Virus genome (UHGV): UHGV-0173641
Reading direction: 5' to 3' (one strand)
Length of the DNA: 23,184 nt
From: a virus
Shown here: positions 237 through 13,913 of the stretch, piece by piece
Layout of the letters: the number at the start of each line of letters is the position of its first letter
Numbering within the stretch: the stretch's first letter is position 1
Translations under genes and position numbers: made by a program
The notes under the pieces: generated by a model
What the model was told of the DNA's origin: nothing
What the model saw: the letters and a program-made list of their open reading frames with translations, nothing else
The model's database searches: none

Positions 237-1256
237 TTAATCCCCCGTGGACACTGCGTGGACACTTACGCCACCTTTCAGCGGATTAAGGGCCACCGCA
301 TCCTGCAGGTAATCCGGTGCAAAATGCGCATATGCCATTGTTTGCTGAATGGTTGCGTGGCCAAGAATCTTCTGAAGCGCAATAATGTTTCCTCCGTTCA
401 TCACAAAATGGCTGGCGAACGTATGCCGCAGCACATGTGCAGCCTGGCCTTTTGGTAAATCGGGCTTAACTCTTTTCAGCGCCAAGCAGAATTCCCGGTA
501 CTTCACCTCAAACAAGCCGCCTGTTTCTCTGGTTTTGATCGCCTCACAAACTGCCTGCGAAATTGGCACTGTTCTCTTTCGGCCATTTTTGGTTTCAAGA
601 AACGTTACACGGTTATGAACTATCTGTTCACCACGAAGCTTACAAGCTTCACTCCAGCGCGCCCCTGTGCTTAAACACAAAAGCGCAACACGCCAGTAGT
701 CGCCCTCCAATGTATCGAGCAATAGCGCTACTTCCTTCCGGGACAGGAAAGCCATTTCTCGCGGGGATACATAAAGAATAGAAATCCCCCTTACCGGATG
801 CTCTGCATCCCAGAGGCCTATTTTCTTCAGTACGGTAAACATTCCGGATAACCGATTCATATATCTGTTAGCAGATGACGGTTTCAATCCATCAGCTATC
901 TTTTGAGAACGCCACGCGATAATTTTCAGCTTATCAAGATCCACAGCCTGCATATCAGCGCCAAGCTCATTGATTATGTTGCGCAGTTGTTTTCGGTCTT
1001 CTTCCGCCTTACGCCTGTGCTGGCCGTGATACATCCACCACAACTCAAGCAAATCATTTAGCGTTCGACGATCACGGTAGCCCTGTATATATTCCCGCTT
1101 TTCAGCGTTCGCCATGATGTAGCGTTCAGTGGCCACCGCTACCGATTTTTTGTCAAATACCTTACGCACGCGCTTTCCCTTGCGTCCGTTCGGCCTGATG
1201 TCCAGCAAATAACGACCATCTTCGAGCTTCTTAATCGACATCGCGAAGCCCTCCAA
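237..1256 (-). CDS. int: Phage tyrosine integrase (P2-type site-specific recombinase)
   Basis: 339-aa ORF. C-terminal catalytic region (ARWSE...HVLRHTFASH...LGHATIQQTMAYAH) matches the tyrosine recombinase R..HxxR..Y pattern. Sits at the prophage end next to the repressor, as in P2. Confidence 0.9.
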   Translation of the reverse strand: MEGFAMSIKKLEDGRYLLDIRPNGRKGKRVRKVFDKKSVAVATERYIMANAEKREYIQGYRDRRTLNDLLELWWMYHGQHRRKAEEDRKQLRNIINELGADMQAVDLDKLKIIAWRSQKIADGLKPSSANRYMNRLSGMFTVLKKIGLWDAEHPVRGISILYVSPREMAFLSRKEVALLLDTLEGDYWRVALLCLSTGARWSEACKLRGEQIVHNRVTFLETKNGRKRTVPISQAVCEAIKTRETGGLFEVKYREFCLALKRVKPDLPKGQAAHVLRHTFASHFVMNGGNIIALQKILGHATIQQTMAYAHFAPDYLQDAVALNPLKGGVSVHAVSTGD

Positions 1257-3595: not shown

Positions 3596-3799
3596 ATGGC
3601 AATTAAGCATTTTCCCGTCGTTCGCTTTACCTCCAGAGGACGCGAATACGAGGTCGACGAACGCCTGATTACCACTATCGACAAACATCGTTCGGAAAAG
3701 GATGCACACCACATCTACCTCACTGACGGCACTTATTTCTGCGCCACTAACGTGGCGCGGGTGAATCTTATCCGACAGGTACAGGAGCCACGCAGATGA
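3596..3799 (+). CDS. Hypothetical small protein (~67 aa)
   Basis: ORF frame 3578-3799; ATG at 3596 preferred (GAGAG 6-10 nt upstream), TTG at 3578 possible. Stop overlaps the next start (ATGA at 3796-3799). Confidence 0.5.
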   Translation: MAIKHFPVVRFTSRGREYEVDERLITTIDKHRSEKDAHHIYLTDGTYFCATNVARVNLIRQVQEPRR

Positions 3800-4062
3800 C
3801 CATTCTGGACTACATCGCTACCCATCCGGGTTGTAGCGGCGGAGAAATCGCAGCAGCACTGAATACTCCAACCACAGCCATTAATGCTGAGTTACGCCAA
3901 CTTTGGCGCGGCGGCTTAGTCATCAGAACAAACCGCAGCACAGGTGGTCGCGCTCGCAAAACTGGAGGCCAGGCTTCTTACCACGTAAACCCGATGCCGT
4001 TCGGGTGTAGCAATCCACTTACTCACATGTTTAACCAGCTACTGAAGGAAGCCAGAGCATGA
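3796..4062 (+). CDS. Hypothetical protein (88 aa), possible winged-helix DNA-binding fold
   Basis: ORF coupled to neighbours by ATGA overlaps at both ends. N-terminal segment (ILDYIATHPGCSGGEIAAALN...INAELRQLWRGGLV) looks wHTH-like; fold assignment is inference. Confidence 0.55.
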   Translation: MTILDYIATHPGCSGGEIAAALNTPTTAINAELRQLWRGGLVIRTNRSTGGRARKTGGQASYHVNPMPFGCSNPLTHMFNQLLKEARA

Positions 4063-4358
4063 GCACCATCAACCACCAGAAGCTACGCGAACTGGCATTT
4101 GCCCTGCAACGAATGGCAACGCCTCAAAAATTACTGGCATTTCGCGCAATGCTCTCGCCGTCTGCTGTGCTGGCACTGCTGGATGAGCTGGAGCACGCCA
4201 GAACCACGGCTCCTGCCATTCGCCTCACGCTCCATCATGAAATCACTGATTTCTGCGCGACATTGGAGGCGCCGGGCGAACCGGAAACGCCGGAAGCAAT
4301 ACAGCAAGAGCTGCTGCAACGCATTGACAAGGTTTTTGATTTTTTTCTGAACCAGTAA
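4059..4358 (+). CDS. Hypothetical protein (99 aa)
   Basis: ORF with ATGA coupling to the upstream gene; acidic, helical-looking sequence. Confidence 0.55.
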   Translation: MSTINHQKLRELAFALQRMATPQKLLAFRAMLSPSAVLALLDELEHARTTAPAIRLTLHHEITDFCATLEAPGEPETPEAIQQELLQRIDKVFDFFLNQ

Positions 4359-4479
4359 GAAACCAGAACATGCACACACAAAAAAACCGCTTGCCATGCC
4401 TCAATCGGTCAGGTTACATTTCCGCCGCACCTCATAAAACGGGTGCCGGGATTTCCACCCCGCTGACAACTACAGCGCA

Positions 4480-4503
4480 CAACCGCGCCAGCGGTTTTTT
4501 TGT
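4480..4503 (+). terminator. Candidate intrinsic terminator or attenuator inside the early operon
   Basis: aaccgc-gcca-gcggtt hairpin (6-bp stem, 4-nt loop) followed by a T7 run at 4494-4500, inside a ~320 bp non-coding gap. Confidence 0.45.
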
Positions 4504-4680
4504 GCGTACTGTATCGCCACGTCTTTTTCGCACACGAATTATGGTGGGGCGTACGGGGCCGACTTCGGTCGGGCCGGGTTCTGTAGTTGCCGGTTGTGGA
4601 AACCCTGTACGTCTCACCACCCCGAGTTTTCCACCTCTGGATGGTGAGTTTTCAAAACTTGCAACTACAGAGGCCACACC

Positions 4681-4911
4681 ATGGCAAACCGCAAACAGCA
4701 CCGCGCTATCGCGGAGCGTCGTCACATCCAGACTGAAATCAACCGCAGACTTTTCCGCGCATCACGCGTCGCGCAAATCATGCACATCAATATGCTGCAT
4801 GAGCGCAGCCACGCACTATCAAACATCTATTCCGCCGCTGTTTTCAGCTATCTGGCGGATGATCTGCACGAGCTTCAACAGCTCATCCAGCAGCAAAACA
4901 AACTCCATTAA
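4681..4911 (+). CDS. Hypothetical small basic protein (76 aa)
   Basis: ORF with GAGG ~8 nt upstream of the ATG; protein-like composition, unlike the overlapping 205-aa S/T/R-rich frame (4370-4987) that I reject. Confidence 0.45.
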   Translation: MANRKQHRAIAERRHIQTEINRRLFRASRVAQIMHINMLHERSHALSNIYSAAVFSYLADDLHELQQLIQQQNKLH

Positions 4912-4983
4912 TTCCTGTTCCGGGCCTTTCCTGCACCTTGCGGCGGGAGGCCTTCGCACATCTGTAACCAGAGGATTGCCGCA

Positions 4984-5349
4984 ATGATTCTCGCCAACGA
5001 CTTTCTTGAATACCTGCTCAACACAGAGCGTGATCTTGCCGTTCGCGTGCGTGAACGTTATGACATGTACCTGAAATCCCTGCCTGTACCGCAGCTCGCT
5101 GACGGAAAGATTGTTATTGATGGTCGCTACATGATTGACAGCCACGAGGGAAATTACAGGCTTTACCGCATTGAAGGTGGCACCCCGTACGTTATTGGCA
5201 TTTACCAGCGCCCATCCTCTGCAATCGTCGATGTGATTGCCGACAGCATCCGCATCACACATCGCCATGCCGACACAGAAGACACCGTGCTGGAAATTCA
5301 GCGGCTGGCTACAGTCTGCCGCGACACCCTGAATGGCATGACGAAGTAA
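4984..5349 (+). CDS. Hypothetical protein (121 aa) immediately upstream of replication gene A
   Basis: ORF with GAGG upstream; stop 6 bp before the A start. Occupies the position of a replication accessory gene (P2 B-like position) but no similarity recognised. Confidence 0.55.
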   Translation: MILANDFLEYLLNTERDLAVRVRERYDMYLKSLPVPQLADGKIVIDGRYMIDSHEGNYRLYRIEGGTPYVIGIYQRPSSAIVDVIADSIRITHRHADTEDTVLEIQRLATVCRDTLNGMTK

Positions 5350-5355
5350 ATCACT

Positions 5356-8178
5356 ATGACGGCAGAGTACATCAGGGACTGGCAACAACCGCGCCACGCA
5401 GTGGGGCGTGAAGGAACGGGGATCCCCGCTCCTGAATCCGCGCTTTCCTCCTGGCTGGATGCTTACCGGGCAGAGAACGAGCGCCGCCAGGAAATGGCTG
5501 ATGCGGCGTTCTCCGCCACGCCGCTGGGCAACCTGATTAATAAAAGCCTGGACGCACAGGAAAAACAGGACAAAACCATCACACTGGCAGGAGACGCCAG
5601 AAAACAGGCACGCGGCGCGGTGGATGAAGCCATGGCCTCGCTGCGCCTGCTGCCGTCCTATCTGCGCGATCCGCTTATTCGCCACCTCTCCTTCCTGCGC
5701 AAAAAACAGGAAGCCGATCGCCAGAAAGGCAAAAAGAGCTGGCAGGCTGAACGCTACGCGCGCGGAACCCTGCGCAAAATATTCGAACGTCTGGACCGCA
5801 CCGACCACCGCTGGCTGACACGGGGTTATCGCGCCCTTGCCGGACGCGAACGCCTGGACGATTTGCTTTACCTGCCGCAGCTCAACAAGCACCAGATACA
5901 GACGCTGGCCACCATGACGGCGGCGATGTTCAGCAGCACCTTCGAAAAACTCTGCAATGGCTTTGGCGCGACCGATGGCGAGCTGACCATGGATGTAACC
6001 CTGAAGGCGTATCAGATGCTGGCCCGCATGGCGTTACACCTGCACGCCATGCCTCCACATTATGACGCACTGACAACAGACAAAGACCGGAGGAACGAAC
6101 CGGACACGGAACTGCTGCCGGGCGCAATCCTTCGCCTGACCTGTGCGGAATGGTGGAAACGCAAACTGTGGCTGTTACGTTGCGAGTGGAGAGAAGAACA
6201 ACTCCGCGCCGCCTGTCTGGTTTCCAGAAAGACATCGCCCTATCTGAGCCAGGACGCGTTAAGCGAGTTTCGCGCACAGCGCGAGAAAACACGCGATTTC
6301 CTGAAAAGTTTCATGCTGGAAAACGAAGATGGGTTCACGATTGATCTCGAGACAGTGTATTACGCGGGAGTAAGTAACCCGGTTCACCGTAAGGCAGAAA
6401 TGATGGCCACCATGAAGGGGCTGGAACTTCTGGCCGAAGCCCGTGGCGACAAAGCGGTGTTTCTGACTGTCACCTGCCCGTCAAAATACCACGCCACAAC
6501 AGAGAACGGTCATCCGAATCCCAAATGGAACGGGGCCACCATGCGCGACTCCAGCGATTACCTGGTTAACACGTTTTTTGCGGCGGTCCGCAAGAAACTG
6601 AACCGCGACGGCCTGCGCTGGTATGGCATCCGCACGGTGGAGCCTCACCATGACGGCACCGTGCACTGGCATATGATGGTCTTTGCTCATCCGGAAGAAA
6701 TCGACAGCATCGTGGCCATCACCCGCGATATTGCCATTCAGGAAGACCGCCACGAGCTGGGCAATGATATTACTCCGCGCTTTAAGGCGGAGTATGTCGA
6801 CGGCTCAAAAGGCACACCAACCAGCTACATCGCGACCTACATCGGGAAAAACCTGGACAGCCGTGCCGTGGATGGCATCGACCCGAAAACGGGCAAGCCA
6901 CGCGTTGACCACGAAACCGGAAAATCAATGGCCGAGAGCGTGGAACGCGCCATCGGCTGGGCGCGCCTTCACCGGGTCCGCCAGTTCCAGTTCTTTGGCA
7001 TCCCCTCCCGCCAGGTATGGCGTGAACTGCGCCGCCTTGCCAGCCAGATGGCACGCAACCCGGAAGGCCCGCAACGGCTGAAGGATGACGCAATGGATGC
7101 GGTTCTTGCCGCCGCTGATGCCGGATGTTTTGCCACCTACATAGAGAAACAGGGCGGCGTACTTGTTCCACGCAAAGACTACCTGATTCGCACCGCCTAC
7201 GACCTCGCCGATGAGCTGAACGATTACGGCGAACAGAGCGTACAGATTTACGGGATCTGGTCACCACTCATCGGGGAATCCTCCCGTGTGTGCACGCATC
7301 CGGATAACTGGAAGCTGGTAAGACGCAAACCGGAAGCGAAAGACAGCGCCAGCGAAAATGGTTTTGACCTTCAGGGCGGCCCTGCCGCCCCTTGGACTCG
7401 TGGCAATAACTGTCCCCGTGTACAGGAAACGGACAACAACGGGACAGAACAGCCGGAAGAACGGCCAGCACCGTGGCCGCAGCTTCCTGACGGCGTTGAT
7501 GTGGATGAATGGATGCGCTCACTGAAACGGCACGAACGCCGGGCGCTGATGCGTTCGCTGCGTGACAAACAGGCAAAAAACAGCAGTGATGAAATGCAGA
7601 GCTGGACACAGAGCCGCAAACAGCAGCGGCCTTTGCCTGATAACCACGAATTACTCGCTAAAGAATGGCGGGAGTCTGCCGAATCTCTCGGCCTGCATAT
7701 CGGTGAACAGCAGATGCAGCACCTGTTACGGGGCGGCAGCCTGTACGTTGACGGCAGCATCATTGCACCGCAGGGATTTGAAATTGTACGCAAACCGGAT
7801 ACCCGCCCGGACAGCCGAATCACGCAGCTCTGGCAGCGCCTGAGCCGTAATCACGGCGTAAGCAGCACGGAGATCCGCCATAACCCGGTCGCCGGCTATC
7901 TGGAACAGCTGGGGGCATCAGACCCCGAAGCCGCCGCACGCCTGGCATCCACACTTCAGCAGGACCAGAACACCATGAAAACCCCCGTTACCGTGCTTTC
8001 TGACATGCTGCGCGCCATCCGTGACGCAGAGCACGCACAGAGAATCAGTGAAACCACTGAACGCGCCCGCCGCAAAGCAGACCTGCTGCGGGGTAGCCTG
8101 ACCAGTGGAAACAAAAAACAGACAGAAACGGGATTCACAAAACCCGTAAATGAGCAAAAAACGCGCCGCGATATATGA
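5356..8178 (+). CDS. A: Replication initiation endonuclease, P2 gpA-like rolling-circle initiator (940 aa)
   Basis: Large ORF in the P2 A position. Contains an H-x-H (HWH) and paired tyrosines (YIATYIGKN) consistent with the HUH rolling-circle motifs of this family. About 180 aa longer than P2 A as I recall it (761 aa), with a charged/low-complexity C-terminal third. Confidence 0.85.
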   Translation: MTAEYIRDWQQPRHAVGREGTGIPAPESALSSWLDAYRAENERRQEMADAAFSATPLGNLINKSLDAQEKQDKTITLAGDARKQARGAVDEAMASLRLLPSYLRDPLIRHLSFLRKKQEADRQKGKKSWQAERYARGTLRKIFERLDRTDHRWLTRGYRALAGRERLDDLLYLPQLNKHQIQTLATMTAAMFSSTFEKLCNGFGATDGELTMDVTLKAYQMLARMALHLHAMPPHYDALTTDKDRRNEPDTELLPGAILRLTCAEWWKRKLWLLRCEWREEQLRAACLVSRKTSPYLSQDALSEFRAQREKTRDFLKSFMLENEDGFTIDLETVYYAGVSNPVHRKAEMMATMKGLELLAEARGDKAVFLTVTCPSKYHATTENGHPNPKWNGATMRDSSDYLVNTFFAAVRKKLNRDGLRWYGIRTVEPHHDGTVHWHMMVFAHPEEIDSIVAITRDIAIQEDRHELGNDITPRFKAEYVDGSKGTPTSYIATYIGKNLDSRAVDGIDPKTGKPRVDHETGKSMAESVERAIGWARLHRVRQFQFFGIPSRQVWRELRRLASQMARNPEGPQRLKDDAMDAVLAAADAGCFATYIEKQGGVLVPRKDYLIRTAYDLADELNDYGEQSVQIYGIWSPLIGESSRVCTHPDNWKLVRRKPEAKDSASENGFDLQGGPAAPWTRGNNCPRVQETDNNGTEQPEERPAPWPQLPDGVDVDEWMRSLKRHERRALMRSLRDKQAKNSSDEMQSWTQSRKQQRPLPDNHELLAKEWRESAESLGLHIGEQQMQHLLRGGSLYVDGSIIAPQGFEIVRKPDTRPDSRITQLWQRLSRNHGVSSTEIRHNPVAGYLEQLGASDPEAAARLASTLQQDQNTMKTPVTVLSDMLRAIRDAEHAQRISETTERARRKADLLRGSLTSGNKKQTETGFTKPVNEQKTRRDI

Positions 8179-8254: not shown

Positions 8255-9214
8255 ATGAAAATCTGTATCGACGACGGCTCCACCAACATCAAGCTGGCAT
8301 GGACTGAGAACGGCGAACGCCGCAACGCCATCAGCCCGAACAGCTTCAAATCGGAATGGTCTGCGCCGTTCGGTGGCATGCAGCCCGCAAACTACATGCT
8401 TGATGGCGTGCGCTATGGTTTTGATCCGGTCAGCGATCGATTTGTCCAGACGACCGACACGCAATACCAGTACAGCGATGTGAATGTAATTGCCATTCAT
8501 CACGCGCTGGTCAAATCAGGCATCACGCCACAGGAGGTGGATGTGGTTGTCACCCTGCCACTGAGCGAGTATTTCGACACAAACGCACAACCGGACATGG
8601 CCAACATCAACCGCAAAAAAGCGAACGTTATGCGCCCGGTGGAATACCAGAACGGCGAAGCATTCACTATCCGTAATGTACGGGTTATGCCTGAATCCAT
8701 TCCGGCTGGCTTTAAAGCACTGGCTGACATGAGTCCGTTTGAATCCCTGCTGATTGTGGATTTAGGCGGAACCACGCTGGATGTGGCAAAGGTTCAGGGA
8801 CAACTGGCAGGTATCAGCCAGGTGTTTTGCGATCCACACGTAGGCGTTTCCCTGATGGCCGATGCCGTACTGTCGGTGATGGCCACCAACGGTATGCGTA
8901 CCAGTCACCACATCGCCAATACCATTATCGAACATCGCCATGATGAAGCCTGGCTGCGCCAGCACATCCACAATGACGCGCATTACGGCAGCCTGATGGC
9001 GGTTATTCGTGAAAAGGAAGAAACACTGAAACAACGAGTGATCCGCGCGCTGGCGGGTTTTTCGGGTTACGGGCGGGTGATGGTTGTCGGTGGCGGGGCG
9101 GAGATTGTGGCACCCGCTATCCGCGAAGCCTGCGGAGTTAATGCGGCTTTCATCGCAGACGGGGTGCCACAGTTTGCTCTGGTCAATGGTTTGTACGCAA
9201 TGGACAAGGAGTAA
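8255..9214 (+). CDS. parM: ParM/StbA-like actin-type ATPase (type II plasmid partition family)
   Basis: 319 aa. N-terminus MKICIDDGSTNIKLAW and LIVDLGGTTLDVAK, plus SDVNVIAIHHAL, VMPESIPAG, MVVGGGAE and LVNGLY, match plasmid R1 ParM as I recall it (MLVFIDDGSTNIKLQW..., LIIDLGGTTLDIS, VMVIGGGAE). Strong AAGGA RBS. Confidence 0.88.
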   Translation: MKICIDDGSTNIKLAWTENGERRNAISPNSFKSEWSAPFGGMQPANYMLDGVRYGFDPVSDRFVQTTDTQYQYSDVNVIAIHHALVKSGITPQEVDVVVTLPLSEYFDTNAQPDMANINRKKANVMRPVEYQNGEAFTIRNVRVMPESIPAGFKALADMSPFESLLIVDLGGTTLDVAKVQGQLAGISQVFCDPHVGVSLMADAVLSVMATNGMRTSHHIANTIIEHRHDEAWLRQHIHNDAHYGSLMAVIREKEETLKQRVIRALAGFSGYGRVMVVGGGAEIVAPAIREACGVNAAFIADGVPQFALVNGLYAMDKE

Positions 9215-9218
9215 ACCC

Positions 9219-9530
9219 ATGACGACATCAACCTGGCGGATAAGTTTCTATCTGAAGCCCTCCGCTGTCAAGAACGAAGGCGAAGCATGCGCCTGGCTGG
9301 ACAGCCTTACACCAGAAGCCCGCAAAAGCGGCCAACGCGTGGCTTTTCTGGCCGGGCTGGCACTTCTGAAAATGAATCCGGCAGAGGCTTACCGACTGGC
9401 TGCATGGGCTGATGATGAAGTGTTATCAGTGACACAGACCAGGACAGAACGCCCCGCATCACAGCCAGTATCAACCGCACAGATAACCAGTCAGATGGCC
9501 GGAAATATCCGGGCGTTATTTCCTGAATAA
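9219..9530 (+). CDS. parR: ParR/StbB-like adaptor protein (small DNA-binding partner of ParM)
   Basis: 103 aa from ATG 9219, 4 bp after the parM stop, with AAGGAG upstream. ISFYLKPS...LDSLTPEARKSGQRVAFLAGLAL...NIRALFPE resembles R1 ParR as I recall it (IAFKLNPD...LDSIPQGERSRLNRAALTAGLAL...NILRSLFP). The longer ORF-track start at 9084 is rejected. Confidence 0.65.
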   Translation: MTTSTWRISFYLKPSAVKNEGEACAWLDSLTPEARKSGQRVAFLAGLALLKMNPAEAYRLAAWADDEVLSVTQTRTERPASQPVSTAQITSQMAGNIRALFPE

Positions 9531-9536
9531 CACAAC

Positions 9537-9558
9537 ATCAGGGCGAGTTCGCCCTGAT
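9537..9558. promoter_or_regulatory. Perfect 10-bp inverted repeat (atcagggcga-gt-tcgccctgat): candidate operator or terminator stem
   Basis: Palindrome between the parR-like stop (9530) and the GTG start at 9583. No T-run follows, so a protein-binding site or RNA stem is as likely as a terminator. Confidence 0.45.
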
Positions 9559-9582
9559 AACACTATCCAAAGGAGGCAAGCA

Positions 9583-10590
9583 GTGAGCATCATTCAGCGC
9601 TGCCGAGCAGAAAACACTTTTAATTTGGTTTCCATGTCTGGCGGGAAAGACTCACTGGCGCAATGTTTGTATGCCATAGAAAACGATATACAGCATGAGC
9701 GAGTGTTTGCTGATACGGGGCACGAACACCCACAAACGATGGAGTACCTTGACTATCTGGAACAAAAGCTGGGACCAATTCGCCGCGTAAAAGCCGACTT
9801 CACTCGCCAGATAGAAGGTAAGCGCAAATTCATTGCTGAAAAATGGCCAGTATCTCTTGTTGCAGAGTGCGGAATGACGCCTGATGAAGCAGCGGAACGT
9901 GTTGCTTGTGCGCTGGAAATCCTCCACCCAACCGGAAATCCATTTCTTGATCTGTGCATGTGGAAAGGTCGTTTCCCGAGCACTAAAGCGCGGTTCTGTA
10001 CATTCGAACTGAAACACGAACCAGTGCGCACTCAGGTGGTGCAACCTGCGCTTGATGAATATGACGAAGTTATCTCCTGGCAGGGTGTGCGTGCTCAGGA
10101 ATCGCCATCGAGGGCACGCCTGCAAGTGTGGGAGGAAGATGCGGACAATACCCCCGGATTGCATGTCTATCGTCCGATTTTCAACTGGCTACATGAGGAT
10201 GTTTTCGCTATTGCCAGGCGTCACGGGATTAAACCCAACCCGCTCTACCAACAAGGATGCAGCCGCGTTGGGTGTATGCCATGCATTCATGCCAGAAAAT
10301 CTGAACTGGCGGAAATTTTTCAGCGTTGGCCAGAGGAAATCGCCAGAGTGGCAGAGTGGGAACGATTAGTTGCAGCCTGCTCTCGCCGCGGCAACTCAAC
10401 GTTTTTCCCGTCAACTCATGACCCGCGCCGGGCAGAACGTCGCATAGATGTTGTTACCGTAGACAGCTACGGAATCGAAACCTATCGCGACTGGGCAATG
10501 ACAACCCGGGGCGGCGCTCAATTTGACCTGCTGGCGAGCACGAACGATAAGGCGGTGTGCAACAGTGTTTATGCGGGAGTATGCGAATGA
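9583..10590 (+). CDS. PAPS reductase-like / PP-loop ATP pyrophosphatase family protein (335 aa) with C-terminal Cys cluster
   Basis: N-terminal PP-loop SMSGGKDS (SGGxDS) typical of the PAPS reductase / DndC-like superfamily. Cysteine cluster CSRVGCMPC (Cx4Cx2C). GTG start with strong AAAGGAGG RBS. Last gene before the cos region. Confidence 0.8.
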   Translation: MSIIQRCRAENTFNLVSMSGGKDSLAQCLYAIENDIQHERVFADTGHEHPQTMEYLDYLEQKLGPIRRVKADFTRQIEGKRKFIAEKWPVSLVAECGMTPDEAAERVACALEILHPTGNPFLDLCMWKGRFPSTKARFCTFELKHEPVRTQVVQPALDEYDEVISWQGVRAQESPSRARLQVWEEDADNTPGLHVYRPIFNWLHEDVFAIARRHGIKPNPLYQQGCSRVGCMPCIHARKSELAEIFQRWPEEIARVAEWERLVAACSRRGNSTFFPSTHDPRRAERRIDVVTVDSYGIETYRDWAMTTRGGAQFDLLASTNDKAVCNSVYAGVCE

Positions 10591-10665
10591 ACAGCATGAA
10601 AATACTGTTACCCGACATCTGATTTTACTTCTTCAAATCAGGGCAATAATCACGCATCGCCCTGC

Positions 10666-10764
10666 TGCACAATAGTGCACAAATTTGCACAATTTTTTTG
10701 AACGACTTTTTGCCCTTCCGGCCCGCATGGCGGCTGGATCCGTCAGGGATCCGTGCGTGCACAA
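10666..10764. repeat. Phased TGCACAA repeats in the cos-proximal intergenic region; candidate terminase-binding (cosB-like) sites
   Basis: TGCACAA at 10666-10672, 10676-10682 and 10686-10692 (exact 10-bp phasing), plus a fourth copy at 10758-10764. Confidence 0.45.
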
Positions 10765-10779
10765 AAAACGCGCTTTTTC

Positions 10780-10810
10780 TGCGCGCAGGTGACGGGGGAA
10801 CAGCCCGCGT
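10780..10810 (+). other. Candidate cos site (cohesive-end region), degenerate P2-like
   Basis: ggtgacgggggaacagccc (10788-10806) matches about 13 of 19 positions of the P2 cohesive end as I recall it (GGCGAGGCGGGGAAAGCAC). Location (between the hotspot and the 3' end of Q) is where P2 cos lies. Tentative. Confidence 0.3.
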
Positions 10811-11062
10811 TTCAGGGGGCAAATAGCGTTCCCTTAACGATGTCGCAGCGACACGACAGAATGGCCGTATTTCTCACGCTGAGCGTGAAAAATACGTGAG
10901 GGATTCTGATTTGATGGGGTGAAAGGTAAGGCCGTCAAAATCGCACTGAGACGGCGAGAACATGCAGTCAACGCGGTGGGATTGCGTAAGAGTCTGACTG
11001 TCGATGATGGCAATCAGCAGGAAAGCGTCGTGAAATTATCTGACTGATACAGGAGCTGGAGA

Positions 11063-11091
11063 GCCGGGGCATAAATTTTTTATGCCCCGGC
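11063..11091. terminator. Bidirectional intrinsic terminator downstream of portal gene Q
   Basis: Palindrome gccggggcataaa-ttt-tttatgccccggc: GC-rich stem with A/T runs on both sides, 25 bp beyond the Q stop on the - strand. Confidence 0.65.
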
Positions 11092-11115
11092 GAAGCAGCA
11101 GACAAGCGAAGCGCG

Positions 11116-12162
11116 TCAGGATGTGGGCTGGGTGTCTAACAGTGCGTAAGGGTTAAAGCGGATCACCTCTTCGCCAAGCCAGTCATTGATGTGCTTCATG
11201 GCCTCCATGACGGGCATCAGCTCGTTAATTGCGTAAACCCGCGCGGCCTTCTCCACATCACCAAACGCACTTTTTTCGCCCGGCATCGCCCCCATCAGTT
11301 GCGGCGGAACGCGGTGCGCAGCCAGCACATCATCACGGGATGCCGCCTTAACATTCATGAACTCATCCTTTGCGGTGATCTGCTGGAACGGCAAAATTTG
11401 CACCCCCTCTTTGCCCCCGTTGGGCGCATGGATGAGCACGTTTTTAAACGCGCCACCACCACGCGCACCCTGTAACGTTTCTTTCAGGGAGTCCATGCTT
11501 TCGCGGTTTACCTGCGCTGCACCGATGTAGATGATGCACCCGGCGTGGGATCCATTGTCGTAGTACAGTTTTCTGAACATGTCCGCCGAATGAGACAGGC
11601 TGGCCGAGAGTAATGCGCCGAGATATTCCGGCATGCCGTAGATTTCCTGGTTAATATCCGGATTCATCAGGTGGCACACTTTGCCAGGGCGAAACTGAAA
11701 CGCATCCTTGCCATCCTGCACATACCACCATGATTCAAGATCACTTCCGCGTCGCATGTATTTCGCCAGGGCGTGCCGTAATTTAAGCGGTTCGCCGAGC
11801 ATATTGCTCCGAAGCTCAAGGAATGCGTTACCGAACACAAACCAGTCCAGCGCCAGCGCCGAGAAATCCTGCCGGGAAAGCAGCGGGTGCGGAATATAGC
11901 AACCGAGCAATACATTGCGCTTAAAGTAAAGCGCAGACTGATGCCAGGACGTTTGCCGGGCGGCTCTTGCCAGACCGTACCAGTCCACCGGGGTTTCATA
12001 CCACCGCCCGTTATCAGCACAGTACATATTGTCCAGCAAATCATGCCCGGTCAGGCGATAAGGACCATCAAATGTGAATGCACTGAGAGACGATTCTTTC
12101 CTGAGCGCATCAGCGAGATCAATGCGTGAACTCATGCGCACTTTTTTATTTTTTCTGCTCAT
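11116..12162 (-). CDS. Q: Portal protein (P2 gpQ-like)
   Basis: 348-aa ORF on the - strand directly downstream of the terminase ATPase with a 1-nt overlap; size and position match P2 Q (about 344 aa as I recall). Confidence 0.88.
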   Translation of the reverse strand: MSRKNKKVRMSSRIDLADALRKESSLSAFTFDGPYRLTGHDLLDNMYCADNGRWYETPVDWYGLARAARQTSWHQSALYFKRNVLLGCYIPHPLLSRQDFSALALDWFVFGNAFLELRSNMLGEPLKLRHALAKYMRRGSDLESWWYVQDGKDAFQFRPGKVCHLMNPDINQEIYGMPEYLGALLSASLSHSADMFRKLYYDNGSHAGCIIYIGAAQVNRESMDSLKETLQGARGGGAFKNVLIHAPNGGKEGVQILPFQQITAKDEFMNVKAASRDDVLAAHRVPPQLMGAMPGEKSAFGDVEKAARVYAINELMPVMEAMKHINDWLGEEVIRFNPYALLDTQPTS

Positions 12163-13913
12163 CAGAACTCCATAACCATGAAACGCTCGTTTTCTCCTTC
12201 GCCGCCAATTGGTTCGTTAATGACAGCAAGCATGGTTGCCCACGCAAGGTCGCCGTGGCTGATCCCCCTCGCGCGGTCCGTTTCGTAAGTGATAAAGCCG
12301 CCCGGTGTTTTCACCTTACGCACGGCGTTAAAGGCCGCGACCAGCTCGCGTTCGGCGCGATCGTATTCCCACCGCCCGGCACGCATTATTTGCAGCATTT
12401 TCAGTACCAGCGACCGTTTTGATGACAGCGTGAAGGTGTACGGAATAGCGGCAGGGAAAAACCGTTTCACTATCTGATAAACAGCCTCTCCGTTCCCGCC
12501 CGTTACATCAATGCCGATGTGTTCCACGTTGTAGCGACACGTGAACTCTTCAATGACTCTGGCCTGTTCTTCAAACTCCAGCCCCTGAACGCGTCGCGTC
12601 TCCACCGTTCGAAAACGGCCACCAGGAACAGCCGGAGGAACCACCACGGACACAGCGCCGCTGTCGCCGTTGCCACTGCTGCCGTTTGCGTCATACCCAA
12701 TCCATACCGGACGATTCCCCATCGGGCGGGGAGCAAAAGGTTTCCAGTCTTTCCAGTCGTCGTATCCGTCAACACCGCAGCCAATCAGGATATTCAGGTT
12801 AAATGCCGATTCCCCTTCGCGGACAAACTCACACATATAGAGATTGAGGAACTCGTCTTCGGTGTTTTCATCACGAATTTCGTCGATATCGGTGTGTTTC
12901 CAGCCGTGATTGACCACATCTTCCAGCGTGACAATTTGCCGCCATGTCCGGTCAGGGCAGATAAGCCCGTTATGCAGCGTTTTCCAGTCCACAGAAAAAC
13001 GCTGGCGTTTATGCGAGGCCTTTTTCTCGTTCCAGCGGTCGCCGTTCCAGTAGGCGTATGCCTCGTGCGTTTCGGTGGATGGCGTGGAGAAGTAGGTGCG
13101 CCGCAGTCCGCTGAGGGTTGCCATAGCGCCAGCCACCTTGCGCAGTTCAGCAAAGCGACTGACCCAGAAAAATTCATCAAAATAAAAATTGCCCGTATAG
13201 GACTGTGCCGACGCAGCAGAAGTGCCGAGAAAATGCAGCTCTGCGCCGTTGGAGAGGATGATTTTATCGCCCCCTTTCAGCTCCACATCAACTTCAGCCG
13301 CGGCCTTCTGAATAATGCTTTTAAACTGGAACGCCTGACGACGCGACGCAGACAAAAAAATCTGGTTACGCTGGTAAGGTTGCGCCACATCGTCACGCAG
13401 CGCCATCAGCAGTGCTTCCTGTGCAAAATACCAGGTCGCCCCAATCTGTCGGGATTTCAGGATCATCCTGTTACGTATCCCGGCTTCCCTGCAAAGGGTC
13501 AGGGAGTCAAACCAGCCCCGCTGATGCCACTCCAGCCTGCTGATGATTTTTTCCCGCAGTGCGGCAATCTGTTCCGGCGTGAAATGATTTTTGAGTTTTT
13601 TCGCCCGGCCTTTCTTTCCTGCGGCCATCACATCCGGCTGGCCATCATGCAGCTTTTTAAGCTGCCGGGTCAGCAGGTCTATTTCCTTAAAGTCACCGCC
13701 TGTTTTATTCTGTTTTTCAGTAAGCTGGATGAGGCGCGCATCGATGGACTGCGTGACACGCTGCACGGGTGGCGTTTCATCCCACTGGTCGCGTTTTTTC
13801 CACGCATAAATCGTGTTCGGGTTTATTCCCATCAGACGTGAGATTTCTGCGGGCGGATAACCCTGCCAGTAAAGTTGCCGCGCACGCTGGCGCACAAAAG
13901 CGTCCTGAATCAT
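12162..13913 (-). CDS. P: Terminase large (ATPase) subunit (P2 gpP-like)
   Basis: 583-aa ORF; N-terminus MIQDAFVRQRARQLYWQGYPPAEISRLMG is P2 P-like; divergent from the O-N-M-L operon as in P2. Confidence 0.88.
   Translation of the reverse strand: MIQDAFVRQRARQLYWQGYPPAEISRLMGINPNTIYAWKKRDQWDETPPVQRVTQSIDARLIQLTEKQNKTGGDFKEIDLLTRQLKKLHDGQPDVMAAGKKGRAKKLKNHFTPEQIAALREKIISRLEWHQRGWFDSLTLCREAGIRNRMILKSRQIGATWYFAQEALLMALRDDVAQPYQRNQIFLSASRRQAFQFKSIIQKAAAEVDVELKGGDKIILSNGAELHFLGTSAASAQSYTGNFYFDEFFWVSRFAELRKVAGAMATLSGLRRTYFSTPSTETHEAYAYWNGDRWNEKKASHKRQRFSVDWKTLHNGLICPDRTWRQIVTLEDVVNHGWKHTDIDEIRDENTEDEFLNLYMCEFVREGESAFNLNILIGCGVDGYDDWKDWKPFAPRPMGNRPVWIGYDANGSSGNGDSGAVSVVVPPAVPGGRFRTVETRRVQGLEFEEQARVIEEFTCRYNVEHIGIDVTGGNGEAVYQIVKRFFPAAIPYTFTLSSKRSLVLKMLQIMRAGRWEYDRAERELVAAFNAVRKVKTPGGFITYETDRARGISHGDLAWATMLAVINEPIGGEGENERFMVMEF

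What the first reader, a model, noticed from the sequence alone, without database searches (positions are those of the whole stretch)
9583..10590. PAPS-reductase-like PP-loop enzyme with Cx4Cx2C cluster as the last gene before cos
The SGGKDS PP-loop marks an ATP pyrophosphatase of the PAPS reductase / DndC-like superfamily, which includes DNA phosphorothioation enzymes (DndC, SspD) and a BREX-associated PAPS reductase. The C-terminal Cys cluster CSRVGCMPC suggests Fe-S or Zn binding. It has its own strong RBS and is separated from parR by a palindrome, so it may be an independent unit. Candidate roles are a DNA-modifying or nucleotide-activating enzyme for defence or anti-restriction.
Basis: partly seen in the sequence, partly recalled or inferred. 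Interest (0 to 1): 0.7.

Follow-up and report, generated by a model that had tools for sequence, protein, structure and literature searches.

The report
Phage PP-loop sulfur-enzyme-like cargo gene
This is an intact copy of a widespread but uncharacterised phage gene (the phage 186 orf84 family) for an ATP-using, probably iron-sulfur enzyme related to DNA-sulfur-modification enzymes, carried here as single-gene cargo in the variable slot of a P2-like prophage; its most likely role is helping phage DNA evade host restriction, but nobody has tested this.

Summary
The ORF is real: 9583-10590 (+), 335 aa, GTG start, strong RBS, canonical PP-loop S19GGKDS24, Pfam PAPS_reduct E 1.6e-36. The window is a P88-like (P2-family) prophage. 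The gene is the only cargo-specific DNA (9562-10665) in the gpA-to-portal hotspot, after parM/parR.

It is not new as a gene. It is 82% identical to phage 186 orf84, which is non-essential and of unknown function. The family has at least 377 clusters at 50% identity.

It fails the curated cut-offs for CysH, APS reductase and DndC. The conserved set is C139, K144, C231-x2-C234 (the CxxC aligns with the Fe-S CxxC of APS reductase) plus a C-terminal pair, C326 and C334. C334 is the penultimate residue, on a low-confidence tail.

Family members sit next to DNA methyltransferases more often than expected, and sometimes next to Mom or ParB-like genes. A Vibrio phage PAPS-domain::Dam fusion is reported to confer escape from Dnd.

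Best reading: an early-expressed, ATP-dependent sulfurtransferase-like enzyme acting on phage DNA as counter-defence (confidence about 0.45). A defence role and a true sulfate-assimilation role remain possible. Interest is moderate.

The parts
9583..10590 (+). CDS of the PAPS-reductase-like PP-loop protein (335 aa, GTG start, TGA stop); orthologue of phage 186 orf84
9569..9576 (+). Shine-Dalgarno AAAGGAGG, 6 nt before the GTG; moves with the gene (homology to the L007 copy starts at 9568)
9637..9654 (+). PP-loop S19-G-G-K-D-S24 (canonical ATP-pyrophosphatase SGGxDS motif), over 93% conserved in 150 family representatives
9997..10014 (+). C139-T-F-E-L-K144: Cys and Lys invariant in all 150 representatives; followed by H-E-P-V, resembling the APS/PAPS reductase K-x-E-P segment
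   Evidence: motif comparison with the aligned blocks (inference)
10273..10284 (+). C231-M-P-C234, conserved CxxC that aligns with the [4Fe-4S]-binding CxxC of APS reductases 2goy and 7lhr; C226 just upstream (10258-10260) is not conserved
10558..10587 (+). C-terminal tail C326...G332-V-C334-E335; both Cys about 98% conserved, protein nearly always ends at C-E; low-confidence (probably flexible) in the model
9562..10665 (+). Cargo-specific DNA: the only stretch between parR and the portal gene without homology to phage P88
9536..9559 (.). 10-bp-stem palindrome after parR; part of the conserved P88-like backbone; terminator-like only on the minus strand
8255..9530 (+). parM (8255-9214) and parR/StbB-like (9219-9530) partition genes directly upstream, same strand
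5356..8178 (+). P2-type replication gene A, left anchor of the hotspot
10666..11115 (.). Conserved cos-proximal intergenic region shared with P88-like phages (cos itself not mapped; a 13/19 match to the P2 cohesive end, found by eye, lies at 10788-10806)
11116..12162 (-). Portal gene Q, right anchor of the hotspot

Best explanation
The gene encodes a phage-family enzyme with the PAPS/APS-reductase fold that uses ATP through a canonical PP-loop. ATP use is inferred from the motif: adenylyl transfer with release of pyrophosphate.

It probably holds a [4Fe-4S] cluster on C139, C231 and C234. It carries two further conserved cysteines (C326, C334) on a flexible C-terminal tail that could shuttle sulfur as a persulfide, presumably obtained from the host cysteine desulfurase IscS.

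By analogy with DndC and SspD, I propose that it activates a position in nucleic acid, most likely replicating phage DNA, and transfers sulfur to it. It would act alone or together with the DNA methyltransferases that so often flank its homologues. The effect would be that the phage escapes modification-dependent host defences such as Dnd or Ssp. It would then be a counter-defence or self-modification gene, not a lysogen-protecting one.

In this window it has been moved as a one-gene cassette (RBS plus ORF) into the cos-proximal variable slot of a P88-like prophage. It lies downstream of gpA-parM-parR on the same strand and is probably read from upstream promoters.

Shown here: fold, motifs, conservation, family membership, cassette boundaries and neighbourhood statistics. 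Inferred: ATP use, cluster binding, sulfur transfer, DNA as the target, and the counter-defence role.
For: - Canonical SGGKDS, unlike the degenerate loop of true reductases (SSSFGIQA in CysH and SFSGAED in APS reductase, as aligned).
- C231-x2-C234 aligns with the cluster CxxC of 2goy and 7lhr.
- C139 and K144 are invariant in 150 of 150 representatives, and C326 and C334 in about 98%.
- DndC is described as a PP-loop enzyme with a 3-Cys 4Fe-4S cluster plus a sulfur-receiving Cys dyad (PMC10853773).
- Among defence-system models, SspD scores best (86.5 bits), then BrxP (46) and DndC (31).
- Neighbourhoods: Dam lies directly upstream in 14 of 34 scorable 186-like loci. In 44 distant loci, methyltransferases make up 11 of 165 ORFs within two genes against 6 of 344 further away (odds ratio 4.0, Fisher p 0.007). 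The Pfam counts agree: 14 methyltransferases plus 1 Mom among 133 adjacent ORFs, against 2 plus 1 displayed among 150 control ORFs.
- Individual examples: phage Rivra has a translationally coupled MTase-PAPS-MTase operon; phi644-2 and L016 have an adjacent ParB-like gene; P0247 carries a weak N-terminal methyltransferase-domain match ahead of its PAPS domain.
- Published work: the Vibrio phage 44E38.1 PAPS::Dam fusion plus one neighbouring gene confers escape from host Dnd (bioRxiv 10.1101/2021.05.05.442762). PAPS reductases also occur in Aca-regulated anti-defence operons (PMC13551039).
- In phage 186 the gene lies in the early lytic operon just before gene A.
Against: - No biochemical or genetic test exists for this subfamily. 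186 orf84 is annotated 'not essential, unknown function'.
- The window has no DndA/D/E or SspA/B/C partner, no methyltransferase and no ParB-like gene. The known phosphorothioation enzymes all work in multi-protein complexes (PMC12707154).
- The protein scores far below the DndC cut-off: 22 against 290 bits.
- The Cys/Lys pattern is equally that of an APS reductase, so sulfite production cannot be excluded.
- The methyltransferase enrichment is modest, loci are not phylogenetically independent, and phage early regions are generally rich in such genes.
- The relation of the experimentally tested Vibrio PAPS domain to this subfamily was not established.
- pI is 6.1 and no recognisable DNA-binding domain was found.
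- The one copy in 5,426 complete E. coli genomes carries a W304 stop.
Confidence: 0.45

Rival explanations
1. Lysogen-protecting anti-phage defence cargo. Expressed from the prophage, the enzyme modifies host and prophage DNA or depletes a metabolite, and so excludes superinfecting phages, like old and tin at the same P2 locus.
For: It sits in the gpA-gpQ cos-proximal hotspot, which Rousset et al. showed to be a reservoir of anti-phage systems (PMC9122126). Cargo at this slot varies between P88-like phages. The defence-system models SspD, BrxP and DndC all match.
Against: The hotspot also holds non-defence genes such as the partition system itself. The gene is not listed in that paper or its supplements. 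Most homologues lie in early lytic operons, next to replication, recombination and methylase genes. No restriction or effector partner and no own promoter were found. Modification-only modules give no defence by themselves. The only complete-genome copy is a pseudogene.
Confidence: 0.12
2. A genuine, divergent APS/PAPS reductase acting as an auxiliary metabolic gene. C334 on the tail attacks the sulfate of APS or PAPS, C326 resolves the thiosulfonate, and sulfite feeds cysteine synthesis during infection.
For: The closest solved structures are APS and PAPS reductases. The Fe-S CxxC, the invariant K144 in a K-x-E-P context, the Arg-rich W-x-G-x-R-x-x-E-S-x-x-R loop and a Cys on a flexible C-terminal tail all mirror APS reductase. 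Databases annotate it as cysH or as an auxiliary metabolic gene.
Against: Scores are far below every curated reductase cut-off: 65 against 154, 52 against 235, and 43 against 165 bits. The canonical SGGKDS ATP-pyrophosphatase loop is not found in the aligned reductases. The ECGLH motif is absent, only one Cys of the CC pair is present, and there is an extra 80-residue C-terminal region. The neighbourhood is DNA metabolism, never sulfur metabolism. E. coli hosts already have cysH.
Confidence: 0.12
3. An RNA-directed thiolase or modifier, for example of tRNA, that protects the phage translation apparatus from anticodon-targeting defences or tunes translation.
Against: They match less well than the reductases. 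No RNA-binding domain (THUMP, PUA, Zn ribbon) was detected. Neighbours are DNA-modifying enzymes, not tRNA genes.
Confidence: 0.08
4. Mainly a regulatory or structural role without catalysis: an IbrA-like co-activator of prophage genes, or simply an ORF whose translation is needed for a downstream gene, as noted for 186 gene A.
For: The 186 annotation says translation to the end of orf84 appears necessary for translation of A. The phi458 homologue is annotated as a transcriptional regulator.
Against: Here the gene lies downstream of gene A and is followed by no gene on its strand. All catalytic motifs are under strong conservation across at least 377 clusters. The IbrA-type model PRK06850 scores 26 against 536 bits.
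Confidence: 0.05

Closest known systems
Phage 186 orf84 (NP_052288) and its orthologues in Peduoviridae (Yersinia phage P37; record OU784746)
   Same: 82-84% identical over the full length, with the same motifs and the same C-terminal ...VCE end. Matches PHROG 15238 and 424.
   Different: In phage 186 the gene lies in the early operon immediately upstream of, and translationally coupled to, gene A. Here it lies after gpA-parM-parR in the cos-proximal hotspot of a P88-like phage. The function of orf84 is unknown.
DndC (phosphorothioation sulfurtransferase)
   Same: PAPS-reductase-fold PP-loop ATP pyrophosphatase. DndC is described as having a 3-Cys 4Fe-4S cluster plus a Cys dyad, a pattern that parallels C139/C231/C234 plus C326/C334.
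   Different: Scores 22 bits against a cut-off of 290. Only residues 132-214 align. It is about 130 aa shorter, and no dndA/B/D/E genes are nearby.
SspD (single-strand PT system) and BrxP (BREX type 4)
   Same: Best-scoring defence-system models: SspD 86.5 bits, covering residues 125-263 including the CxxC, and BrxP 46 bits.
   Different: No SspA/B/C or BREX partners and no DUF4007 fusion. It is phage-borne and single-gene. No curated SspD threshold was available.
Assimilatory APS reductase (P. aeruginosa 2goy, M. tuberculosis 7lhr) and CysH
   Different: Canonical SGGKDS in place of the degenerate loop. One Cys in place of the CC pair. No ECGLH motif. Extra helices at 74-113 and 239-305. Below all curated cut-offs.
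Vibrio phage 44E38.1 p0018, a PAPS-domain::Dam fusion (Piel et al.)
   Same: A phage-encoded PAPS-reductase-domain protein linked to a DNA methylase. Together with one neighbouring gene it lets a phage escape host Dnd.
   Different: It is a fusion with a short (about 175 aa) PAPS domain. Sequence relatedness to this subfamily was not tested. Here there is no methylase in the window.
Lambda NinC-type and IncC-plasmid PAPS-reductase-family proteins
   Same: The same superfamily on mobile elements, also of unknown function.
   Different: Only about 25% identity over the N-terminal core.

Membership tests
PAPS_reduct domain superfamily (Pfam PF01507) | Score above the Pfam gathering threshold | tested here: met
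   126.3 bits against 22.5, residues 15-236
PP-loop ATP pyrophosphatases | SGGxDS motif at the end of the first strand | tested here: met
   S19GGKDS24 follows strand 12-18 in the model; over 93% conserved in the family
PP-loop ATP pyrophosphatases | ATP to AMP + PPi activity | not testable with these tools
   Needs purified protein
Phage 186 orf84 family (PHROG 15238/424) | Full-length homology with the conserved C139, K144, CxxC and C-terminal CxS...GxCE features | tested here: met
   82% identity to NP_052288; PHROG E 1e-112 and 5e-83; conservation table
CysH / PAPS reductase | Curated NCBIfam cut-offs (NF002537 154 bits; TIGR00434 165; TIGR02057 254) | tested here: not met
   65.4, 43.3 and 40.4 bits
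CysH / PAPS reductase | C-terminal ECGLH catalytic motif (recalled from the literature) | tested here: not met
   The sequence ends ...NSVYAGVCE; a penultimate Cys is present but in a different motif
APS reductase | Curated cut-off of TIGR02055 (235 bits) | tested here: not met
   51.9 bits
APS reductase | Four-Cys cluster site CC...CxxC | tested here: inconclusive
   The CxxC aligns. Only C139 of the pair is present (F138, T140). A fourth ligand might be C125, C326 or C334, or there may be none.
DndC | TIGR03183 cut-off of 290 bits | tested here: not met
   22.1 bits
DndC | Operon with dndB/D/E (and dndA) | tested here: not met
   No such genes among the window ORFs
SspD | Match to the SspD profile | tested here: inconclusive
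   PADLOC SspD 86.5 bits, E 6e-25, in two stretches; no curated cut-off is given
SspD | Neighbouring sspA/B/C (and sspE) | tested here: not met
   Absent from the window
BrxP (BREX type 4) | PAPS reductase fused to DUF4007 inside a BREX operon | tested here: not met
   Only 46 bits over part of a 779-position model; no extra domain; no BREX genes
P2-family cos-proximal hotspot cargo (Rousset et al. 2022) | Variable DNA between gpA and portal gpQ | tested here: met
   gpA 5356-8178, portal 11116-12162; cargo-specific DNA 9562-10665
P2-family cos-proximal hotspot cargo (Rousset et al. 2022) | Anti-phage activity | not testable with these tools
   Needs phage challenge assays; not listed in that paper or its supplements
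Phage anti-Dnd PAPS::Dam (Piel et al.) | PAPS domain fused to a Dam methylase | tested here: not met
   Single-domain protein. Many homologues do have an adjacent methylase, but this window has none.
IbrA-type (PRK06850 / DUF3440) | NF005316 cut-off of 536 bits; DUF3440 domain | tested here: not met
   26.3 bits; no DUF3440 hit

The most novel reading that the evidence does not exclude
The 186-orf84 family may be a self-sufficient, single-protein writer of a sulfur-containing DNA mark (a phosphorothioate or a thio-base), drawing sulfur from host IscS. Temperate phages and some plasmids would install the mark on their own replicating DNA to evade restriction. That would be a much simpler route to DNA sulfur modification than the multi-protein Dnd, Ssp and BREX-4 machineries. 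It would also mean that the many viral 'cysH auxiliary metabolic genes' in viromes are mis-annotated.
Probability: 0.15. Interest if true: 0.8.

Novelty: new member of a known kind. Interest (0 to 1): 0.4.

Why it matters
Genes of this family are very common in temperate phages. They are routinely annotated as cysH or PAPS reductase and counted as sulfur-metabolism auxiliary genes (for example). The sequence evidence here argues that they are ATP-using, Fe-S, DndC/SspD-like enzymes tied to DNA-modification modules.

Phage 186 offers a classical, genetically tractable system: orf84 is non-essential. In it, the question of what these genes do, and whether a single protein can put sulfur into DNA or defeat Dnd/Ssp, becomes directly testable.

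For this window specifically, the finding is an ordinary, rare cargo variant of a known hotspot.

Tried and rejected
- P2 cos 19-mer search in the window: no match at up to 3 mismatches, so cos was not mapped.
- AlphaFold-database Foldseek library: unavailable.
- BFVD viral fold search: only generic 'PAPS reductase' entries, nothing informative.
- Literature searches for a function of 186 orf84 or phage PAPS reductases: no direct study found. One search was wasted on the prefix 'IbrA' and one on 'PptA'.
- The Rousset et al. text and supplements do not mention the gene.
- The family profile weakly hits PDB 21fy chain C 'PptA' (E 2e-5). I could not identify that protein or reproduce the hit with a truncated profile (E 0.6), so I dropped the lead.
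- Fusion partners were searched in 10 long family members. Only one weak methyltransferase fusion (P0247) was found.
- A horizontally acquired composition signal was rejected: GC is 0.49-0.54, like the flanks.
- An independent transcription unit bounded by the palindrome was rejected, because the palindrome is backbone sequence and no promoter was found.
- Residue-level geometry of the cysteines in the model could not be checked, because coordinates are not exposed.

Full report
**Observation**

An intact ORF runs from 9583 (GTG) to 10590 (TGA) on the + strand and encodes 335 aa. AAAGGAGG lies at 9569-9576, six bases before the start. Pfam places residues 15-236 in PAPS_reduct at E 1.6e-36. 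The gene is evolving under purifying selection, with 130 synonymous against 27 non-synonymous codon differences to the IMG/VR locus L008 homologue, which is 92% identical in protein sequence.

**Setting**

The window is a P88-like (Xuanwuvirus, P2-family) prophage. Its genes, in order, are:
- integrase (237-1256, minus strand)
- repressor
- cox
- early genes
- replication gene A (5356-8178)
- parM (8255-9214)
- parR/StbB-like (9219-9530)
- the gene in question
- a 525-bp gap
- the convergent portal and terminase genes (11116-13913, minus strand)

The gpA-to-portal interval is the cos-proximal diversity hotspot of P2-like phages. About a quarter of those phages carry a partition system there (PMC9122126).

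Homology to phage P88 runs to 9561 and resumes at 10666, so only 9562-10665 is cargo-specific. That stretch holds the RBS, the ORF and 75 bp. P88 and other relatives carry other small genes in the same place.

It has no T-run on the + strand, and no sigma-70-like promoter was found between 9200 and 11200. The gene is therefore an evolutionary cassette, but it has not been shown to be its own transcription unit.

The arrangement is rare. One of 5,426 complete E. coli genomes has it, and that copy carries a TGG-to-TGA change at codon 304. The exact protein occurs on four contigs, and a 99% variant on three. All of these contigs that are long enough to show neighbouring genes have the same parR-to-portal setting.

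A 97.7% identical copy of just the RBS and ORF (9568-10590) sits in an unrelated prophage early region. There it lies between HD-domain and Ead/Ea22-like genes, which shows cassette exchange between phages.

**What it is related to**

The protein is 82% identical over its whole length to phage 186 orf84. In 186 that gene lies in the early lytic operon directly before gene A and is annotated 'unknown function; not essential'.

HMMER against 1.84 billion representatives finds 377 clusters at E below 1e-30 and 987 at E below 1e-10. Homologues of 43-50% identity occur in:
- temperate phages of Burkholderia, Stenotrophomonas, Serratia, Acidovorax and Agrobacterium
- a Pseudomonas plasmid

No paper assigning a function to this subfamily was found.

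**Family tests**

The protein fails every curated equivalog cut-off:
- CysH: 65 against 154 bits
- APS reductase: 52 against 235 bits
- DndC: 22 against 290 bits
- the IbrA-type model: 26 against 536 bits

Among defence-system profiles, SspD scores best (86.5 bits), then BrxP (46) and DndC (31).

**Anatomy**

Conservation was measured across 150 representatives that are at most 50% identical to one another. The conserved features are:
- the PP-loop SGGKDS
- D44-T-G-x-E48
- C139 and K144, both in 150 of 150
- W166-x-G-x-R-x-x-E-S-x-x-R177
- N219-P-L-Y
- G-x-x-R-V-G-C231-x-P-C234
- W304, T307-x-R-G-G311
- a C-terminal C326-x-S...G332-x-C334-E335, after which nearly all proteins stop

C231-x2-C234 aligns with the cluster-binding CxxC of the 2goy and 7lhr APS reductases. 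The segment C139-TFEL-K144-HEP resembles the reductases' K-x-E-P segment. That comparison is my inference from the aligned blocks.

The true reductases have a degenerate loop (SSSFGIQA, SFSGAED) where this protein has the canonical ATP-pyrophosphatase motif.

The overall pattern is a PP-loop, three cluster-type cysteines and a separate Cys pair. That is how DndC is described in PMC10853773.

**Neighbourhoods**

I analysed 79 IMG/VR loci.

In the 186-like group:
- The order is small early genes, then often a Dam methylase, then the gene, then gene A.
- Dam lies directly upstream in 14 of 34 scorable loci.
- A methylase lies within two genes in 16 of 35 loci.

In the 44 more distant loci:
- Pfam finds 8 C5, 5 N6/N4 and 1 MT-A70 methylases plus 1 Mom among 133 ORFs within two genes.
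- Among 150 control ORFs further away, the displayed Pfam families show 2 C5 methylases and 1 Mom.
- An HMM-based, position-resolved count gives 11 of 165 against 6 of 344 (odds ratio 4.0, Fisher p 0.007).

Individual cases also point to DNA modification:
- Agrobacterium phage Rivra has a translationally coupled methylase-PAPS-methylase block.
- phi644-2 and L016 have an adjacent ParB-like gene.
- One family member has a weak N-terminal methyltransferase-domain match.

The loci are not phylogenetically independent, so these numbers are indicative only. The window itself contains no methylase, ParB-like gene or cysteine desulfurase.

**Published parallels**

Piel et al. moved two genes into a related Vibrio phage and thereby enabled it to infect a Dnd-carrying host. 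One of the two genes encodes a PAPS-domain::Dam fusion (bioRxiv 10.1101/2021.05.05.442762). A 2026 NAR paper notes PAPS reductases in Aca-regulated anti-defence operons and cites that result (PMC13551039). I could not retrieve the Vibrio protein to test how close its PAPS domain is to this subfamily.

**Interpretation**

The most likely reading (about 0.45) is an ATP-dependent, Fe-S, DndC/SspD-like sulfurtransferase. It would be expressed with the early or replication genes and act on phage DNA as a counter-defence, using the host desulfurase.

The rivals are:
- a lysogen-expressed defence gene (0.12). The hotspot position supports this, but early-operon homologues, the absence of a partner gene and the absence of a promoter argue against it.
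- a true APS/PAPS reductase auxiliary gene (0.12). The Cys/Lys/tail pattern fits, but the canonical PP-loop, the sub-threshold scores and the DNA-metabolism context do not.
- an RNA thiolase (0.08).
- a non-catalytic regulatory role (0.05).

**Novelty and verdict**

This is a new member of a known but functionally uncharacterised phage family, sitting in an unusual slot. It is not a new kind of system. Its value is as a pointer. The family is abundant, commonly mislabelled as a sulfur-assimilation gene, and testable in phage 186. Interest is 0.4.

Noticed in passing
NZ_CP136025.1 (locus L002 15053-16060), equivalent to window 9583-10590: The only copy of this gene-in-this-slot among 5,426 complete E. 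coli genomes differs by two bases. One of them turns W304 into a stop, removing the conserved C-terminal Cys tail.
   Followed up: yes
L007 5986-7008 (IMG/VR UViG_2778261087_000011): A 97.7% identical copy of just the RBS and ORF lies in an unrelated prophage early region (S24 repressor, DUF2303, HD-domain, then Ead/Ea22, DUF551, exonuclease). This indicates recent cassette exchange between different temperate phages.
   Followed up: partly
L093 (IncC plasmid pNDM102337, record 3728-4843) and 1,476 PLSDB plasmids: Mostly conjugative plasmids (IncC in the one record inspected) carry a roughly 25%-identical PAPS-reductase-family gene. In that IncC record it lies close to the replication initiator gene and mobI. 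This may be another uncharacterised mobile-element use of the fold.
   Followed up: partly
L096 1550-4712 (Agrobacterium phage Rivra): Methyltransferase, PAPS-reductase-like gene (43% identical to the query) and DNA methyltransferase overlap by 4 nt each, suggesting a translationally coupled three-gene DNA-modification block.
   Followed up: partly
window 9536-9559: A 10-bp-stem hairpin after parR is conserved in P88. It scores as an intrinsic terminator only on the minus strand, where there is no obvious gene to terminate.
   Followed up: no
window 10788-10806: GGTGACGGGGGAACAGCCC matches the P2 cohesive-end 19-mer at 13 of 19 positions by eye. It is a possible cos core in the conserved region before the portal gene. 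The Xuanwuvirus P884B11 record ends at the equivalent of about window 10710 instead.
   Followed up: no
PDB 21fy chain C: A 270-aa chain named 'PptA' matches the family profile at E 2e-5 over the NPLY...CxPC region. I could not identify what it is.
   Followed up: partly
phage records MK770415, KC139512 and others: Lambda-type NinC proteins and Chi-like phage 'PAPS reductases' share weak N-terminal similarity (25-40% over 50-180 aa). Phages therefore carry several distinct PAPS-reductase-fold families of unknown function.
   Followed up: no
window 4059-4355 and 4370-4987: The early region here carries an Ead/Ea22-like fragment and a full-length Ash-family ORF. The near-identical prophage in NZ_CP136025 has an 'ash' pseudogene there. 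This is a second variable spot in the prophage.
   Followed up: no
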